From: a phage
Sequence record: PZ295659.1
DNA length: 64,000 nucleotides
Strand: one strand, 5' to 3'
The translations under genes and the position numbers were made by a program. Within the stretch, counting starts at the first letter, position 1. Each line of letters opens with the position of its first letter. Shown in pieces: positions 2,027 through 59,248 of the stretch. The notes beneath the pieces were generated by a model that was not told the origin of the DNA, searched no databases, and was given only the letters and a program-made list of their open reading frames with translations.

Positions 2027-2044
2027 GGGAGACTTCGGTCTCCC
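2027..2044 (+). terminator. GGGAGAC-UUCG-GUCUCCC hairpin after gene 8
   Basis: Identical 18-mer hairpin 5 nt after the gp8 stop, followed by UUUCG and the gene 9 late promoter. Confidence 0.6.
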
Positions 2045-21365: not shown

Positions 21366-21383
21366 GGGAGACTTCGGTCTCCC
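21366..21383 (+). terminator. GGGAGAC-UUCG-GUCUCCC hairpin terminator after gene 23
   Basis: Perfect 7-bp stem with UUCG tetraloop followed by AUUUUGG; the same 18-mer recurs at 2027-2044 and, reverse-complemented, at 43864-43881 and 59231-59248. Confidence 0.7.
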
Positions 21384-43383: not shown

Positions 43384-43755
43384 TTATTTGATTTTTGTCC
43401 ACTTAGCTGAATCAATAACACCTTTTGCTTTAATCTTCTCGATTAATGACTCTGCACGATTTCTGGCATTTTCATACCATACAACATCTTCAGAGTAACC
43501 TGTTTCTTCATCTTCGTAAGTTTTAGAACGAATACAACCATAAACTGTAGAATTCAGACGGTAAATTTCACCAGTGAAAAAGTTTTCGATTTCGATATGA
43601 TAACAAAAATCGTCTGAAGGGCCATCAGGAGTTGTACAATAAACTACATCACCTTGAATCGAACGAACCATCCACTGTAACTCGTTAACAACTTGAGATT
43701 TATATCCATCGTGGTCACGGCATTTAATTGTAGCATTTAAATTGATAGTGTTCAT
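43384..43755 (-). CDS. hypothetical early protein (123 aa)
   Basis: Own early promoter and the same RBS-start cassette as its neighbour; several Cys residues. Confidence 0.5.
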   Translation of the reverse strand: MNTINLNATIKCRDHDGYKSQVVNELQWMVRSIQGDVVYCTTPDGPSDDFCYHIEIENFFTGEIYRLNSTVYGCIRSKTYEDEETGYSEDVVWYENARNRAESLIEKIKAKGVIDSAKWTKIK

Positions 43756-43797: not shown

Positions 43798-43826
43798 ATA
43801 GTAACACATCCTACAGGAGAGTAAAC
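43798..43826 (-). promoter_or_regulatory. early promoter (GTTTAC-N17-TACTAT)
   Basis: Minus strand reads GTTTACTCTCCTGTAGGATGTGTTACTAT, upstream of ORF 43384-43755. Confidence 0.5.
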
Positions 43827-43863
43827 ATCTTTTTTAAACTTTTTCTGCCCTAAACGCACAAAA

Positions 43864-43881
43864 GGGAGACCGAAGTCTCCC
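43864..43881 (-). terminator. GGGAGAC-UUCG-GUCUCCC hairpin terminator
   Basis: Third copy of the identical 18-mer hairpin, 5 nt after the stop of the 59-aa ORF and followed by a U-run on the minus strand. Confidence 0.6.
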
Positions 43882-43886
43882 TAAAA

Positions 43887-44066
43887 TTATGCAACAACCT
43901 TTCCAAAACGAGAAGCATCATCTCGAAGAACTGCACGTGCTCTGCGCATGATCTTCTCAACGGTTTGATTAATACGAGAGTTCGACCCACGCTTGTATCC
44001 AGCGCGTTTAGAGGTACCATCAACTTTCTTTTCTACTGCTTTCTTTGCTTTAGCTTGTTTTGCCAT
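43887..44066 (-). CDS. small basic protein (59 aa), absent from the ORF track
   Basis: Hand-translated MAKQAKAKKAVEKKVDGTSKRAGYKRGSNSRINQTVEKIMRRARAVLRDDASRFGKVVA; terminator hairpin immediately downstream. Confidence 0.45.
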   Translation of the reverse strand: MAKQAKAKKAVEKKVDGTSKRAGYKRGSNSRINQTVEKIMRRARAVLRDDASRFGKVVA

Positions 44067-44285
44067 TATAAATTCTCTTTAAATGAAAATGCAGGACTTA
44101 TTGACATTGCCTGCCCAAGCCCTCAAGGGGAACATAGGTTTTTGGATATTTAACGACAGGATAACCATAAACCCGTCATCATACCGACCACGACTTAGAC
44201 AGATAACCTTTTTCTGACGCGTGATAGTACAAAATACATTCAAGAGGTACACCGTAAAATTGTCGGGGCGGTACTTCTAAAACAT

Positions 44286-44303
44286 ATCGATTCGCAAATC
44301 GAT
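44286..44303 (-). terminator. perfect palindromic hairpin downstream of rIII
   Basis: AUCGAUU-loop-AAUCGAU 7-bp stem about 33 nt after the rIII stop; no clear U-tract. Confidence 0.35.
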
Positions 44304-44335
44304 AATCAGACAATTCGACGGCTCCTCGATTTAAC

Positions 44336-44584
44336 TTACTTCAGGGTAATAACAAAATGACGAACTGCTTTACGTGCTGCAGAAGCCAGAGGCTTAGCAT
44401 ATTTCAATTCATCTTTCTGAACCAGGATATCGCGAAGATCGGCTTGTGCTGGATTCAGATGTTTGAAATACTGTAAGATTTCAAGAGCTTCGGCTTCAAC
44501 ATCAATAGATGCGCCGTAATTGTCATGGCCATTATTCCATGCATGGCGTTGCAGTTCAAGAGCGTGTTGTAATTGTTTAATCAT
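44336..44584 (-). CDS. rIII: rIII lysis inhibition accessory protein
   Basis: 82 aa, same as T4 RIII; located just downstream of gene 31 on the same strand as in T4. Confidence 0.65.
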   Translation of the reverse strand: MIKQLQHALELQRHAWNNGHDNYGASIDVEAEALEILQYFKHLNPAQADLRDILVQKDELKYAKPLASAARKAVRHFVITLK

Positions 44585-44700: not shown

Positions 44701-44708
44701 TATTTATA
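44701..44708 (-). promoter_or_regulatory. late promoter TATAAATA (minus strand) between gene 31 and rIII
   Basis: Plus-strand TATTTATA immediately after the gp31 stop. Confidence 0.4.
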
Positions 44709-45396: not shown

Positions 45397-45978
45397 TTAT
45401 TCACCACAAAAGTTTCGGATTTGTTCCCAATTCAGAGAACGAAGATTATTACGAGAGTACTGAATTACTTCAATACCGGCTTGTTTTAGAATGTCTGCCC
45501 AATTTTCAGGAGATCTGTCATATAATTCTGCGTATACAACCTTTTTAATACCTGACTGCGTAATAGCTTTAGTGCAATCAGGACATGGAGAAAGCGTCGT
45601 ATATAACGTAGCACCTTCAATAGAATTACCTTTACGAGCTGCAAACAAAATTGCATTCAATTCTGCATGGATTTCATTATTAGCAGACCATGCACTATGA
45701 GCGGCCCGATGTTCTTTAGCCAAAACAAAATTATCTGCCCGTCCAAATGCTGTAGTGCCTTCTTTATGTCCAGCAACGATGACCGGGCTTGGTTTATTCT
45801 TCAACCAACCGTTTTCGGATGCATGTTCGCAACAGTTTGTACCACCTGAAGGAGAGCCATTATAACCTGTAGAAATAATGCGTCCATCTTTTTCAATGAC
45901 TGCGCCAACTTTCCATGAACAACATTTTGATTCTTGAGAAATCAGATATGCAATCTGAAGGTATGTGCTAGCTTTCAT
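45397..45978 (-). CDS. cd: dCMP deaminase
   Basis: 193 aa, same as T4 Cd; zinc-binding cytidine/deoxycytidylate deaminase motifs HAELNAI and PCPDC. Confidence 0.9.
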   Translation of the reverse strand: MKASTYLQIAYLISQESKCCSWKVGAVIEKDGRIISTGYNGSPSGGTNCCEHASENGWLKNKPSPVIVAGHKEGTTAFGRADNFVLAKEHRAAHSAWSANNEIHAELNAILFAARKGNSIEGATLYTTLSPCPDCTKAITQSGIKKVVYAELYDRSPENWADILKQAGIEVIQYSRNNLRSLNWEQIRNFCGE

Positions 45979-46970
45979 TATTGAACCTTATTAATATAAG
46001 TTAACAGCTCTTTAGTTTGTTCCCAACTGATGCACGCATCGGTAATGGAAACGCCATAGGACATATTATCAGAAATTTTTTGATTTCCTTCATGTAGGAA
46101 TGATTCTATCATAATTCCTTTGACCAAATCATTAGCTGCTAAATTTTTACCAATACCAATTTGATTGCTATAATGCCCATCAGCGTTTGCATGGCTACAG
46201 TCAACCATTACATAATGATTCAGACCTACTGCACTTGCTTTGTTAGAAGCTTCTTGAATATCAGAAGAATGATAGTTCGGGCCGTTGGTCCCGCCACGCA
46301 ATACGATATGCGTATTCTGATTACCTTCAGCTTCAACAATGCCTATAGTACCATCGACGTCCATACCCATATACCGATGAGGCCAGGCGGCACTATACAT
46401 CGCGTCTGTAGCTACTTTAATAGAACCATTGGTTGCGTTCTTGAAGCCTACGCACATCGGTAGACCTGAAGCAATTTCACGATGTGTCTGACTTTCAGTC
46501 GTACGGGCGCCAATAGCAACCCATGAGAAAATACCAGAAAGATACTTAATCGTGAATGGGTCTAATACTTCAGTTGCTAATGGAAGTCCCATACGTAGAA
46601 GTTTACGACACAATGTTCGTGCAACTATAAGACCGTGGTTCATATCAAAACTTCCGTCAAGATATGGATCATTTACAAGACCTTTCCAACCTACGGTAGT
46701 TCGAGGCTTTTCAAAATAAACGCGCATCACTAACAGAACATTAGGAAGACGAGTTTGAAGTTCAGCCAGACGTTTGCCGTATTCAACAGCAGCAATAGGG
46801 TCATGAATTGAACAAGGACCTACAACAATAAGTTTGCGTGGGTCTTCACCGTTCATAATCGAATTAACTTGTTCGCGATGAGAAGCCACTTGTGATGCGT
46901 AAGCTTCCGACAAAGGAATAATCTCAGCCAGTTCTTTTGGAGAAATAAGTTTTCTGACGATAGGTAACAT
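45978..46970 (-). CDS. 3-deoxy-D-arabino-heptulosonate-7-phosphate (DAHP) synthase, class I AroG/AroF/AroH-like
   Basis: 330 aa aligning along its length with E. coli AroG as recalled: KLIVVGPCSIHDP, MRVYFEKPRTTVGWKGL, SWVAIGARTTESQTHRE, GFKNATNGSIKVA, IVLRGG, MVDCSHAN, ESFLHEGNQ, SITDACISWE. Confidence 0.85.
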   Translation of the reverse strand: MLPIVRKLISPKELAEIIPLSEAYASQVASHREQVNSIMNGEDPRKLIVVGPCSIHDPIAAVEYGKRLAELQTRLPNVLLVMRVYFEKPRTTVGWKGLVNDPYLDGSFDMNHGLIVARTLCRKLLRMGLPLATEVLDPFTIKYLSGIFSWVAIGARTTESQTHREIASGLPMCVGFKNATNGSIKVATDAMYSAAWPHRYMGMDVDGTIGIVEAEGNQNTHIVLRGGTNGPNYHSSDIQEASNKASAVGLNHYVMVDCSHANADGHYSNQIGIGKNLAANDLVKGIMIESFLHEGNQKISDNMSYGVSITDACISWEQTKELLTYINKVQ

Positions 46971-52534: not shown

Positions 52535-53713
52535 TTAGAAATATTTTTTGTATGAATTGATTACATTTTGGTCTACATCATTATCAATTTGTGCAACAAG
52601 ATAAGAACTGATTTCAACTTCCTGAGGAGCTGCTTGAACTAAATCAGAGTTCAGATATTCACGAATCCAAGGATAAGGATGTTTGGTCGGAGCATCAGTA
52701 ATTGGACACGGCAAACCACACTGTTTCATACGAGACACAGTCAAGTAATCAACAAAAGCACACATACTCTGTGTATTGATACCTGGACATGTACCGTCTT
52801 TAAAGAGATGTGCAGCCCATTCCTTCTCTTGTCTATTTACTTCCATAAAAATGTCAACTGCTTCTTGTTCACATTCTTTAACAATTTGAACCCACTCATC
52901 ACCATCAGTACCAGATTGAAGTTGACGGATAATGTACTGAGTACCCTTGAGGTGGAGTTGTTCGTCACGAGCAATGAACTTCATAATCTTTGCATTACCT
53001 TCCATAATTTCCATATTTTTATGGAAGTTGAAAGTACATGCAAATGATACGTAAAAACGAATAGCTTCTAAGGCGTTGATAACATGCAAACAGAGATAAA
53101 GAGACTTCATTAAATCACGCTTAGCAGCGGCTTCTTGCTTAATAGCACGTTCTAATTGAAGGTCTGCATTAATTGACGCTTTGGCTAGTTCCGTGAATTC
53201 TTTCTGGTTTTCCCAATGGCGAGTCTTGACTAGAACATCATCGTAATATTTACCTATTGATTCAGCTCGTTTCATGATTGCTTCGTCTAATACAATTTCA
53301 TCAAATACCTTAGATGGATCAGTATAAAGATTTCGCATAATATGAGTATACGAACGAGAGTGAATAGTTTCACTGAATGTCCATGTTGCAACCCACGTAT
53401 CTAATGAAGGGTCAGAAATCAGTGCCATAAGTACCGCAGATGGGGCCCTGCCTTGGATAGAATCTAATAATGATTGATATTTAAGATTGTTTGTAAAGAT
53501 GTCCTGTTGGAACTGAGGAAGCTTATTGAACTGCGCAGAGTCCAACATCAAGTTTACCTCTTCAGGACGCCAGAAAAATGATAATTGCTTTTCGGTTAAA
53601 TCTTCAAAAACTTTATGGCGTTGAATATCATAACGCGCAATACCAAGACCAGAACCAAAGAACATCGGTTCATTCAAAACATCGACTTGTTGTGTGTTAA
53701 AAACTGTACTCAT
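52535..53713 (-). CDS. nrdB: ribonucleotide reductase class Ia beta subunit
   Basis: 392 aa (T4 NrdB 388 aa), continuous with no intron; di-iron/radical site segments including YVSFACTFNFH. Confidence 0.9.
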   Translation of the reverse strand: MSTVFNTQQVDVLNEPMFFGSGLGIARYDIQRHKVFEDLTEKQLSFFWRPEEVNLMLDSAQFNKLPQFQQDIFTNNLKYQSLLDSIQGRAPSAVLMALISDPSLDTWVATWTFSETIHSRSYTHIMRNLYTDPSKVFDEIVLDEAIMKRAESIGKYYDDVLVKTRHWENQKEFTELAKASINADLQLERAIKQEAAAKRDLMKSLYLCLHVINALEAIRFYVSFACTFNFHKNMEIMEGNAKIMKFIARDEQLHLKGTQYIIRQLQSGTDGDEWVQIVKECEQEAVDIFMEVNRQEKEWAAHLFKDGTCPGINTQSMCAFVDYLTVSRMKQCGLPCPITDAPTKHPYPWIREYLNSDLVQAAPQEVEISSYLVAQIDNDVDQNVINSYKKYF

Positions 53714-59230: not shown

Positions 59231-59248
59231 GGGAGACCGAAGTCTCCC
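59231..59248 (-). terminator. gene 32 terminator hairpin GGGAGAC-UUCG-GUCUCCC
   Basis: Fourth copy of the identical 18-mer, 7 nt after the gp32 stop, followed by UUUUGAG on the minus strand. Confidence 0.7.

What the first reader, a model, noticed from the sequence alone, without database searches (positions are those of the whole stretch)
43887..44066. Unlisted 59-aa highly basic protein gene with its own terminator
This ORF is below the ORF-track size cutoff but has a clean ATG and ends 5 nt before one of the four identical UUCG hairpin terminators. The product is very lysine/arginine-rich (MAKQAKAKKAVEKKVDGTSKRAGYKRGSNSRINQ...), as in nucleic-acid-binding or histone-like proteins and some packaged internal proteins.
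Basis: seen in the sequence. Interest (0 to 1): 0.4.

Follow-up and report, generated by a model that had tools for sequence, protein, structure and literature searches.

The report
T4-type gene 30.9 with structured leader
The 59-codon reading frame is a real gene already annotated as gene 30.9 of T4-like phages; its function is still unknown, and the new observation is the long, conserved, folded RNA leader in front of it.

Summary
On the minus strand, 43887-44066 holds an ATG-started 59-aa ORF (6.6 kDa, pI 11.4). It ends 5 nt before a GGGAGAC-UUCG-GUCUCCC hairpin that occurs four times in the window.

It is not a new gene. It is the ortholog of T4/RB69 gene 30.9 (PHROG 1427, "conserved hypothetical"), and the window is an RB69-like Mosigvirus. 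Coding is well supported:
- the frame, start and stop are kept in 48 loci from many genera;
- changes concentrate at third codon positions, with dN/dS 0.13-0.5;
- the SKRAGYKR motif is invariant despite synonymous changes.

A hairpin plus T-run follows the stop in all Tevenvirinae loci.

The family is small, phage-only, and matches no Pfam, NCBIfam, PADLOC or PDB entry. AlphaFold predicts a disordered lysine-rich tail and one amphipathic arginine-rich helix. That fits nucleic-acid binding, which was not tested. A packaged or histone-like role is disfavoured.

Beyond the finding, the 269-nt rIII-30.9 spacer is a promoterless mosaic of RNA stem-loops supported by covariation. It includes an H-type pseudoknot, has no Rfam match, and occurs once per genome in 774 phage records.

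Verdict: a known gene and an ordinary terminator. The leader is the part worth following.

The parts
43887..44066 (-). Gene 30.9 (59 aa, 6.56 kDa, pI 11.35): disordered Lys/Ala-rich N-tail, invariant SKRAGYKR-x2-N-x-R motif, amphipathic Arg-rich C-terminal helix
44075..44080 (-). Shine-Dalgarno-like AAAGAG, 8 nt before the ATG
   Evidence: Read from the sequence. Homologues have GGAAG or GAGG at the same place.
43860..43881 (-). Intrinsic terminator: GGGAGAC-UUCG-GUCUCCC hairpin (43864-43881) plus UUUU (43860-43863). It ends the 31-rIII-30.9 transcription unit.
   Evidence: A hairpin plus T-run follows the stop in all Tevenvirinae homologues, with 20 different hairpin sequences, 3-11 nt after TAA. 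The generic scan did not call it.
43798..43825 (-). Early (sigma-70-type) promoter-like TTTACT-16 nt-TACTAT for gene 30.8. Together with the terminator it forms a PeSL-type terminator/early-promoter cassette.
   Evidence: T4 has the equivalent GTTTACA...TAGTAT after its terminator. The PeSL concept is from PMC4122927 and PMC2839356. This is a consensus match only.
44067..44335 (-). 269-nt promoterless structured leader between the rIII stop and the 30.9 start
   Evidence: 62 pairs, 98.8% of cells paired. No promoter-like site inside. No Rfam match. One copy per genome in 774 phage records. No match in E. coli genomes.
44244..44327 (-). Leader module A: nested helices GAGG/CCUC, GCCGU/ACGGU and GAAUUGUC/GACAAUUU, plus hairpin UAUCGAUU-UGCG-AAUCGAUA
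   Evidence: 25 pairs, 6 with compensatory changes
44189..44223 (-). Leader module B: hairpin CACGC..G(U)CGUG with inner CAGA/UCUG and loop AAAAGGUUA. Absent from T4.
   Evidence: The inner stem is CAGC/GCUG in L010 and L037. Weaker support than the other modules.
44137..44181 (-). Leader module C: H-type pseudoknot. Stem 1 is 44181-44172 with 44160-44151; stem 2 is loop GGUU 44166-44163 with AACC 44140-44137. The joining strand GUUAAAUAUCCAAAA is conserved.
   Evidence: Stem 1: 87.5% paired, 3 pairs with double changes, 0/500 shuffles. Stem 2: cognate duplexes -6.5 against non-cognate -4.4 kcal/mol, 0/5000 permutations. The covariance model gives a single strong hit, 72.5 bits.
44120..44130 (-). 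Leader module D: small hairpin CCC-CUUGA-GGG followed by the conserved CUUG
   Evidence: Unique in the window. Variants CCUC-UUA-GAGG, GCCU-UCG-AGGC and CCC-UUA-GGG keep the pairing.
44091..44114 (-). Leader module E: hairpin GCAGG-(14-nt loop CAAUGUCAAUAAGU)-CCUGC directly upstream of the ribosome-binding site. The loop is complementary to the start region.
   Evidence: At least 6 different complementary stems at this position across genera: GCAGG/CCUGC, GGGAGC/GCUCCC, GGGAAC/GUUCC, GAACUGG/CCAGUUC and others. Local folds pair the loop with the AUG region.
44072..44090 (-). Possible mini-hairpin AUUUUC-AUUUAAA-GAGAAU that covers the Shine-Dalgarno element
   Evidence: helix 10: 92% paired. 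Other genera have a CUCC..GGAAG equivalent. The mean pairing probability of positions -15..-5 is only about 0.5, so this part is tentative.
44336..44584 (-). Gene rIII (lysis-inhibition accessory protein), the upstream cistron of the same transcription unit
44701..44708 (-). T4-type late promoter motif TATAAATA between gene 31 and rIII, the nearest upstream promoter-like site for 30.9
   Evidence: A MotA-box-like middle promoter motif lies at about 45096, upstream of gene 31. Both are consensus matches only.

Best explanation
The ORF is the ortholog of T4/RB69 gene 30.9. It is a real and already annotated gene for a 59-aa, strongly basic protein with no assigned function.

Shown:
- It is the last cistron of a minus-strand gene 31 - rIII - 30.9 transcription unit.
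- It has no promoter of its own.
- It is followed by a conserved UUCG-loop intrinsic terminator, and then by an early-type promoter for gene 30.8. This is a PeSL-like terminator/promoter cassette.
- It is preceded by a 269-nt leader built from conserved RNA stem-loops with compensatory base changes, including an H-type pseudoknot.

Inferred:
- The protein works by binding nucleic acid, RNA more likely than DNA. The binding would use the lysine-rich disordered tail, the invariant SKRAGYKR motif and the arginine-rich helix, which fold on the target.
- Its synthesis is set after transcription by the leader, whose last hairpins can occlude the ribosome-binding site.
- Autogenous repression, as for T4 gp32, RegA or gp43, is one possible form of this control.

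My confidence is about 0.95 that it is a real 30.9 gene with this architecture, about 0.45 that it binds nucleic acid, and about 0.2 that it regulates its own leader. The overall confidence of 0.7 is weighted toward the shown part.
For: Identity and synteny. The region is 98.7% identical to Mosigvirus DCP548 and 94% to RB69. In RB69 the same ORF is annotated gp30.9, between rIII and 30.8. It matches PHROG 1427 at E=2e-31. tblastn finds it in 1007 phage records.

Coding.
- The start, stop and frame are kept in 48 loci.
- dN/dS against the window is 0.13-0.51.
- Variable states per codon position are 46/38/90.
- SKRAGYKR is invariant while 5 of its 8 codons vary synonymously.

Protein features. 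The family has 25 clusters at 50% identity among 1.84 billion proteins; the listed hits are small (41-97 aa) apart from one 513-aa multi-stretch hit, and every hit with a source name or examined context is from a phage. AlphaFold gives a disordered 1-19, then helices at 20-24 and 34-54. Net charge is +13.

Expression. T4 30.9 RNA is classed early. Distant homologues are monocistronic units of promoter, about 70-nt leader, gene and terminator.

Terminator.

Promoters.

Leader.
- Pairing and covariation.
- About 87 G-U cells against 3 A-C cells in modules A and C. This places the structure on the mRNA-sense strand, so it is RNA rather than duplex DNA.
- Single-nucleotide indels in the spacer exclude a coding reading.
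Against: - No experiment or family match assigns any function, and no paper in the library characterises gp30.9.
- The protein was not detected in T4 proteomics, although trypsin would hardly leave a detectable peptide.
- The structural model has low confidence (pLDDT 67.6, pTM 0.35).
- The leader is not thermodynamically unusual as a whole (z = -0.27). Its support comes from covariation only.
- Occlusion of the ribosome-binding site is only moderate in local folds (about 0.5).
- Distant homologues keep SKRAGYKR but lack every leader module.
- Protein C-terminal types and leader module types assort independently.

The last two points argue against a dedicated protein-leader pair.
Confidence: 0.7

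Rival explanations
1. gp30.9 is a host-takeover or counter-defence effector that acts by protein-protein contact. The basic tail and helix would dock onto an acidic or nucleic-acid-binding surface of a conserved host protein, for example part of the transcription, translation, RNA-decay or defence machinery. It would not bind nucleic acid itself.
For: It is a small gene with early RNA in T4, as is typical of T4 host-takeover proteins. Distant homologues sit in stand-alone early promoter-gene-terminator cassettes. The strictly invariant short motif across hosts from Escherichia to the unidentified hosts of metagenomic T4-like contigs suggests one conserved target. The fold is disordered until bound.
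Against: There is no similarity to any known phage inhibitor or PADLOC-related family. A net charge of +13 in 59 residues is more typical of nucleic-acid binders. Nothing here identifies a target.
Confidence: 0.25
2. gp30.9 is a ribosome-associated factor. It would resemble a ribosomal-protein extension or a peptide that plugs the mRNA channel, and would bias translation toward phage messages.
For: Its size, charge and tail-plus-helix architecture resemble small ribosomal proteins. Early expression. Very strong conservation of a short basic motif.
Against: A profile search of all PDB chains, which include very many ribosome structures, gives nothing better than E=0.68 to SlmA. There is no Pfam or NCBIfam ribosomal family match, and no Foldseek match.
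Confidence: 0.12
3. The leader is the main functional element. It would be one or more stable non-coding RNAs or cis-acting RNA modules, concerned with stability, processing or sensing for the rIII/30.9 message. Gene 30.9 would merely lie downstream and have an unrelated role.
For: Modules are shuffled, gained and lost independently of the protein type. The 137-nt module F is 90-100% identical in nearly all of 403 records from many genera, which is more conserved than the neighbouring proteins. The pseudoknot lies anywhere from 80 to 356 nt from the ATG, so it is not a fixed-distance translational operator. Distant 30.9 homologues lack all modules.
Against: In every Tevenvirinae locus examined, the modules lie only in this one spacer and directly upstream of 30.9. 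The last hairpins abut the ribosome-binding site. No promoter or terminator inside the spacer would release a separate RNA.
Confidence: 0.2
4. gp30.9 is a packaged internal or histone-like protein that coats phage DNA in the head.
For: High lysine and arginine content.
Against: T4 30.9 RNA is classed early and homologues have early-type promoters. By inspection, and from established knowledge of T4 IPI-III/Alt, the N-terminus MAKQAKAKKAVEKK lacks a capsid-targeting sequence with a (L/I)-x-E gp21 cleavage site. There is no HU/IHF or other DNA-binding family match.
Confidence: 0.04
5. The ORF is not translated, and its conservation reflects an RNA or DNA element.
For: It is a short ORF with no peptide evidence. 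Chance ORFs of this size are common in the window.
Against: There is codon-position periodicity of substitutions, dN/dS below 1, and in-frame indels only. The start and stop are conserved across genera with about 55-65% amino-acid identity, and the invariant motif carries synonymous changes.
Confidence: 0.03

Closest known systems
T4 gene 30.9 (synonym 31.-2; NP_049823 / UniProt P17310) and RB69 gp30.9 (NP_861910); PHROG 1427
   Same: Same position between rIII and 30.8, and the same length class (T4 58 aa, RB69 59 aa). Global identity to T4 is 93%, and 97.5% over residues 17-56. The window protein is identical to those of RB69 and DCP548. Same terminator arrangement.
   Different: Nothing of substance: this is an allele of a known gene. 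Only the last three residues differ between the Mosigvirus (VVA) and T4 (QKA) types. The old 97-aa '11.1 kDa' UniProt model of T4 starts inside the pseudoknot and is not conserved.
PeSL (promoter-early stem-loop) terminator/promoter cassettes of T4-type phages (Arbiol et al. 2010, PMC2839356; Comeau et al. 2014, PMC4122927)
   Same: A GC-rich stem-loop terminator is followed within about 40 nt by an early sigma-70-type promoter, at a boundary between gene modules. The next gene, 30.8, is only 39% identical to T4, while 30.7 and 30.9 are 98% and 93% identical. That fits module exchange at such a boundary.
   Different: Those papers do not mention 30.9 or rIII. The stem-loop here is the UUCG-tetraloop type. 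Promoter function was not tested.
T4 gene 32 mRNA leader (5' H-type pseudoknot used for autogenous translational repression), and the RegA and gp43 operators. This comparison rests on established knowledge, not on a test here.
   Same: A T4-type message with an H-type pseudoknot in a long leader, upstream of a gene for a putative nucleic-acid-binding protein.
   Different: There is no sequence relation. The Rfam scans of this region and of six related loci returned no family at its gathering score. The pseudoknot's distance to the start varies from 80 to 356 nt. Binding of gp30.9 to the leader is untested, and the distant homologues argue against it.
Arginine-rich-motif RNA-binding peptides such as lambda N (from established knowledge)
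   Same: A small early phage protein, unstructured alone, with a basic helix that could fold onto an RNA hairpin.
   Different: No sequence similarity, no boxB-like site identified, and no evidence for antitermination.
T4 head internal proteins IPI, IPII, IPIII
   Same: Small basic phage proteins.
   Different: gp30.9 lacks the capsid-targeting leader and cleavage site, has an early rather than a virion-assembly expression pattern, and shows no homology.

Membership tests
gp30.9 family (PHROG 1427) | Significant profile match over the full length | tested here: met
   phrog_1427: E=2.4e-31, residues 1-57. Profile hits down to 1.8e-29.
gp30.9 family (PHROG 1427) | Invariant core S-K-R-A-G-Y-K-R ... 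N-x-R followed by a basic helix | tested here: met
   Alignments A1 and A2. The window has SKRAGYKRGSNSRIN.
gp30.9 family (PHROG 1427) | Synteny: downstream of gene 31 / rIII and upstream of 30.8 ... DNA ligase (gene 30) | tested here: met
   The synteny is kept even in a distant metagenomic T4-like contig (L053).
Intrinsic (rho-independent) terminator | GC-rich hairpin directly followed by a U-tract, downstream of a stop codon | tested here: met
   A 7-8 bp stem with a UUCG loop, then UUUUGUG. Conserved with 20 different stems in homologues. The U-tract is short and the generic scan missed it. Termination activity was not measured.
PeSL terminator/early-promoter cassette | Stem-loop terminator immediately followed by an early sigma-70-type promoter | tested here: met
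   TTTACT-16-TACTAT at 43825-43798, 38 nt after the hairpin. This is a consensus match only.
PeSL terminator/early-promoter cassette | Acts as a recombination point for module shuffling | tested here: inconclusive
   30.8 is 39% identical to T4, against 93-98% for its neighbours. That fits but does not prove the point.
H-type RNA pseudoknot | Two helices in which the loop of the first pairs with sequence 3' of it, both supported by covariation | tested here: met
   Stem 1. Stem 2: with stem-2 types GGUU/AACC, CAAGGUU/AACCUUG, GUUGGUU/AACCAAC, UGUGAG/CUCACA and UAGUAG/CUACUA. The relatedness of the sequences inflates the shuffle statistics. There is no chemical probing.
Any Rfam 15 family (riboswitches, r-protein leaders, ribozymes, T4 gene 32 element and others) | Covariance-model score at or above the family's gathering threshold | tested here: not met
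   Only sub-threshold chance hits on the terminator. No tRNA or tmRNA.
T4 internal head proteins (IPI-III, Alt) | N-terminal capsid-targeting sequence ending in a (L/I)-x-E gp21 cleavage site | tested here: not met
   By inspection of MAKQAKAKKAVEKKV. The criterion comes from established knowledge of T4 head assembly. Virion content cannot be tested here.
Bacterial histone-like / HU-IHF or ribosomal protein families | Pfam or NCBIfam match above the curated cutoff, or a PDB sequence or fold match | tested here: not met
   Best Pfam hit 13 bits against cutoffs of 25-28. NCBIfam 13.9 bits against 153. PDB profile best E=0.68. Foldseek returned 0 hits.
Autogenously regulated T4 RNA-binding proteins (gp32, RegA, gp43 type) | The protein binds an operator in its own leader and represses its own translation | not testable with these tools
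   Only circumstantial: a structured leader next to the ribosome-binding site. Counter-evidence comes from homologues without the modules.

The most novel reading that the evidence does not exclude
The rIII-30.9 spacer of Tevenvirinae would be an undescribed class of modular structured RNA. Its modules are an H-type pseudoknot, a multi-helix domain A, hairpins D and E and, in many relatives, a 137-nt pseudoknotted domain F. The modules are shuffled between phages like cassettes. They would act as a sensor or regulatory platform, or as a stable RNA, with the invariant basic protein gp30.9 either as their protein partner or as the gene they control.
Probability: 0.3. Interest if true: 0.65.

Novelty: already known. 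Interest (0 to 1): 0.33.

Why it matters
The ORF itself adds nothing new. It is gene 30.9, annotated since the T4 sequence of the early 1990s. Showing this removes a false "unlisted gene" lead.

Two points still matter:
- gp30.9 belongs to the set of small, strongly conserved T4 early proteins that have no function after decades of work. Its extreme charge, its invariant motif and its near-invisibility to tryptic proteomics explain why it has been missed, and they suggest how to look for it.
- The spacer in front of it has mostly been left unannotated or filled with spurious ORFs in GenBank records. It carries several covariation-supported RNA structures with no Rfam match, in the best-studied phage family.

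If these RNAs regulate 30.9, or act on their own, they would be a new case of RNA-based control in T4-type phages. They would also be an example of RNA modules being exchanged like gene cassettes.

Tried and rejected
- Family and structure searches for the protein all gave nothing usable: Pfam, NCBIfam, PADLOC, PDB profile search (best E=0.68 to SlmA, judged chance), and Foldseek against PDB and BFVD (0 hits).
- An exhaustive profile search of 1.84 billion representatives found only the phage family itself. I therefore rejected any link to cellular proteins.
- Paralogs in the window: none.
- Literature: no paper in the library characterises gp30.9 or this spacer. Miller et al. 2003 is not held. 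The catalogue of more than 10,000 viral RNA motifs (PMC10690425) does not mention it in its text, and its supplements are not held, so prior listing there cannot be excluded.
- Leader as a known RNA: Rfam and ARAGORN were negative. By eye I considered hammerhead-like and preQ1-I-like readings and dropped both for lack of the conserved cores.
- Leader as coding: the 97-aa T4 model starting at the ATGATG of the pseudoknot stops after 10 codons in the window, and 1-nt indels break all frames.
- Leader as a readthrough or frameshift signal for rIII: rejected, because there is no conserved extension frame and the distance varies.
- Promoter inside the leader: none is conserved.
- Host origin of the leader: no match in 5,426 E. 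coli genomes.
- A second pseudoknot copy at 53577-53620 (20.5 bits) lies inside a CDS on the other strand, so I treated it as chance.
- Exceptional conservation of gp30.9 relative to its neighbours: not upheld. Its identity is similar to that of gp31 and rIII, except for the high 88% to a Klebsiella Jiaodavirus.

Full report
**Observation.** On the minus strand, 43887-44066 is a 59-codon ORF that starts with ATG and encodes the quoted peptide. An AAAGAG Shine-Dalgarno-like element lies 8 nt before the ATG. The TAA stop (43889-43887) is followed after 5 nt by GGGAGAC-TTCG-GTCTCCC (43881-43864) and then TTTTGTG. This 18-mer occurs four times in the window against 0 expected. Each copy has a T-rich tail, and one copy follows gene 32. 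The protein is 6.56 kDa, pI 11.35, net charge +13. An ORF of this length is common by chance here, so everything rests on comparison with relatives.

**What it is.** The window comes from an RB69-like T4-type phage (Mosigvirus). The 1-kb region is 98.7% identical to phage DCP548 and 94% identical to RB69.
- In RB69 the same ORF is annotated "gp30.9 conserved hypothetical protein; T4 synonym 31.-2", between rIII and 30.8. T4 itself has it as NP_049823.
- It matches PHROG 1427, function unknown, at E=2e-31.
- tblastn finds it in 1007 phage records from hosts including Escherichia, Klebsiella, Enterobacter, Yersinia, Salmonella, Serratia and Citrobacter.
- The neighbours are gene 31, rIII, 30.8, 30.7, 30.3, 31.1 and cd.

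The gene is "unlisted" only because it falls one residue below a 60-aa cutoff.

**Is it coding?** Yes.
- In 48 loci the start, stop and frame are kept, and length changes are whole codons.
- dN/dS against the window is 0.13-0.51.
- Variable states per codon position are 46, 38 and 90.
- SKRAGYKR never changes, although five of its eight codons show synonymous variants.
- More distant homologues at 33-50% identity keep the same motif and architecture.

T4 omics data class the 30.9 RNA as early and list no protein class, meaning the protein was not detected (supplement of PMC9697503). The longest tryptic peptide is 7 residues, so that absence carries little weight.

**The protein.**
- The family is tiny: 131 clusters at 90% identity and 25 at 50% identity among 1.84 billion representatives. 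All listed members are small proteins except one 513-aa multi-stretch hit, and every member with a source name or examined context is from a phage.
- There is no Pfam, NCBIfam, PADLOC or PDB relative.
- AlphaFold with a 37-sequence alignment gives a disordered N-terminal 19 residues, a short helix at 20-24 and a long amphipathic helix at 34-54 (pLDDT 67.6).
- Foldseek finds nothing.

This is the look of a peptide that folds on a partner. The charge favours nucleic acid, but that is inference.

**Transcription unit.** On the minus strand I found a MotA-box-like motif before gene 31 (about 45096) and a perfect late-promoter TATAAATA at 44708-44701 before rIII. There is no promoter-like site in the 269-nt rIII-30.9 spacer. 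A TTTACT-16-TACTAT early-type promoter lies at 43825-43798, right after the terminator and before 30.8.
- Gene 30.9 is therefore the last cistron of the 31-rIII-30.9 unit.
- A hairpin plus T-run follows the stop in all Tevenvirinae homologues. There are 20 different stems, mostly with UUCG loops, so the element is maintained by compensatory change.
- Terminator plus early promoter is the PeSL arrangement described for T4-type phages.
- It fits that 30.8 is only 39% identical to T4 while 30.7 and 30.9 are 98% and 93% identical.
- In distant T4-like contigs the homologue is a stand-alone cassette of early promoter, about 70-nt leader, gene and terminator.

**The leader.** This is the unexpected part. 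In every Tevenvirinae genus a spacer of about 150-370 nt separates rIII from 30.9. It is highly conserved: 88% mean column identity among T4, RB69 and Dhakavirus-type sequences. It is built from modules that are present, absent or reordered between phages. The window carries these modules:
- Module A (44327-44244): 25 pairs, 6 with compensatory changes.
- Module B (44223-44189).
- Module C (44181-44137), an H-type pseudoknot. Stem 1 is 87.5% paired with three doubly changed pairs, 0 of 500 shuffles reach the observed score, and slid controls score 0.111 or less against 0.281. Stem 2 joins the loop to a downstream strand, and cognate pairs are more stable than swapped ones (-6.5 against -4.4 kcal/mol; 0 of 5000 permutations). 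Five clearly different stem-2 sequences occur.
- Module D, a small hairpin (44130-44120), whose variants keep the pairing.
- Module E (44114-44091), a hairpin with at least six different complementary stems across genera. Its conserved loop can pair with the start region.
- A possible mini-hairpin over the Shine-Dalgarno element (44090-44072).

Over the 15 closest sequences, 98.8% of 882 cells are paired, against 34-48% in slid controls. G-U pairs (about 87 cells) far outnumber A-C (3 cells) in modules A and C. The structure therefore belongs to the mRNA-sense RNA. One-nucleotide indels rule out a coding reading.

The caveats are these:
- The whole leader is no more stable than shuffled sequence (z = -0.27).
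- The sequences are related, so the shuffle statistics overstate significance.
- Nothing was probed experimentally.

On distribution and novelty:
- The leader has no Rfam 15 match and no tRNA-like call.
- It has no relative in E. coli genomes.
- It occurs once per genome in 774 phage records, usually unannotated.
- A covariance model of the pseudoknot hits the window only here (72.5 bits).

**Does the protein go with the leader?** The evidence is mixed.
- For: in Tevenvirinae the modules are found only in this spacer and abut the 30.9 ribosome-binding site.
- Against: distant homologues keep SKRAGYKR with none of the modules.
- Against: protein C-terminal types and module types assort independently.
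- Against: the pseudoknot lies 80-356 nt from the ATG.

I therefore treat leader-dependent control of 30.9 translation as likely. I treat autogenous binding by gp30.9 as only one possibility.

**Mechanism and rivals.** Best reading: gp30.9 is a real, early-expressed, small basic protein that acts by binding nucleic acid (RNA favoured), and its translation is gated by a structured leader. The rivals, with my confidence in each, are:
- a protein-protein host-takeover or counter-defence effector (0.25);
- a ribosome-associated factor (0.12);
- the leader as the main functional element, independent of 30.9 (0.2; not exclusive of the others);
- a packaged or histone-like protein (0.04);
- an untranslated ORF (0.03).

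**Novelty.** The gene is already known and the terminator is ordinary. Interest comes only from the unknown function and the leader RNA, which I could not find described. Large automated catalogues may list it.

Noticed in passing
Related loci, e.g. L008:869-1007, L004:910-1048, L029:1244-1382 (not in the window): Many relatives carry a 137-nt RNA domain ('module F', GCGGCAAGTGCATGCTACC...CAGATAAGAGC) in the same rIII-30.9 spacer. It is found in 403 phage records, with one match in all but one, at 90-100% identity in nearly all, across Klebsiella, Escherichia, Enterobacter, Citrobacter, Yersinia and Erwinia phages. It has 39 predicted pairs, 12 with compensatory changes. An extra loop-loop pairing also covaries (GGCGAUGG/CCAUCGGU, GGUGAUGG/CCAUCAGU, GGCUAUGG/CCAUAGGU). 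There is no Rfam match.
   Followed up: partly
window 45978-46970 (-): A 330-aa gene with a full-length DAHP synthase family I match (PF00793, E=5.5e-75) lies next to the dCMP deaminase gene cd. RB69 has no gene at this position: cd is followed directly by cd.2. A shikimate-pathway enzyme in a T4-type phage looks like an auxiliary metabolic gene.
   Followed up: partly
GenBank records under the 30.9 match (e.g. OR352942, MK524178, LR597660): Several phage records label this 58-59-aa protein '1,4-alpha-glucan (glycogen) branching enzyme, GH-13-type'. That is impossible for a protein of this size and looks like a propagated annotation error.
   Followed up: no
window 44181-44151 (-); T4 L003:1340-1455: The old 97-aa UniProt model of T4 30.9 ('11.1 kDa protein', P0035) starts at the ATGATG that forms the 5' strand of the pseudoknot. 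In the window that frame stops after 10 codons, so the long model is an artefact of one extra G in T4.
   Followed up: yes
window 2027-2044 (+), 21366-21383 (+), 43864-43881 (-), 59231-59248 (-): Four identical UUCG-tetraloop terminator hairpins are oriented with their local transcription units. The one at 59231 follows gene 32. Identity down to the base at four distant sites suggests copying or homogenisation of the element, not just convergence.
   Followed up: partly
window 43384-43755 (-), gene 30.8: gp30.8 is only 39% identical to T4 gp30.8, while the flanking gp30.7 and gp30.9 are 98% and 93% identical. It is closer (53-62%) to the alleles of Klebsiella, Proteus, Enterobacter and Citrobacter phages. 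This suggests a swapped gene module bounded by the terminator/promoter cassette.
   Followed up: partly
window 44200-44216 and 44157-44172 (-): The loop of module B (AAAAAGGUUAUCUGUC) and the pseudoknot loop with its 3' strand (UUUAUGGUUAUCCUGUC) share GGUUAUC(C)UGUC. Module B may therefore be a degenerate duplicate of the pseudoknot. The covariance model did not score B as a hit.
   Followed up: partly
L050-L052 (metagenomic contigs carrying the distant homologue P0111): One distant 30.9 homologue sits in a different context: downstream of Shufflon_N-domain proteins and upstream of HMG-CoA reductase and UbiA genes, on contigs of up to 179 kb. It still has its own sigma-70-type promoter and terminator.
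   Followed up: no
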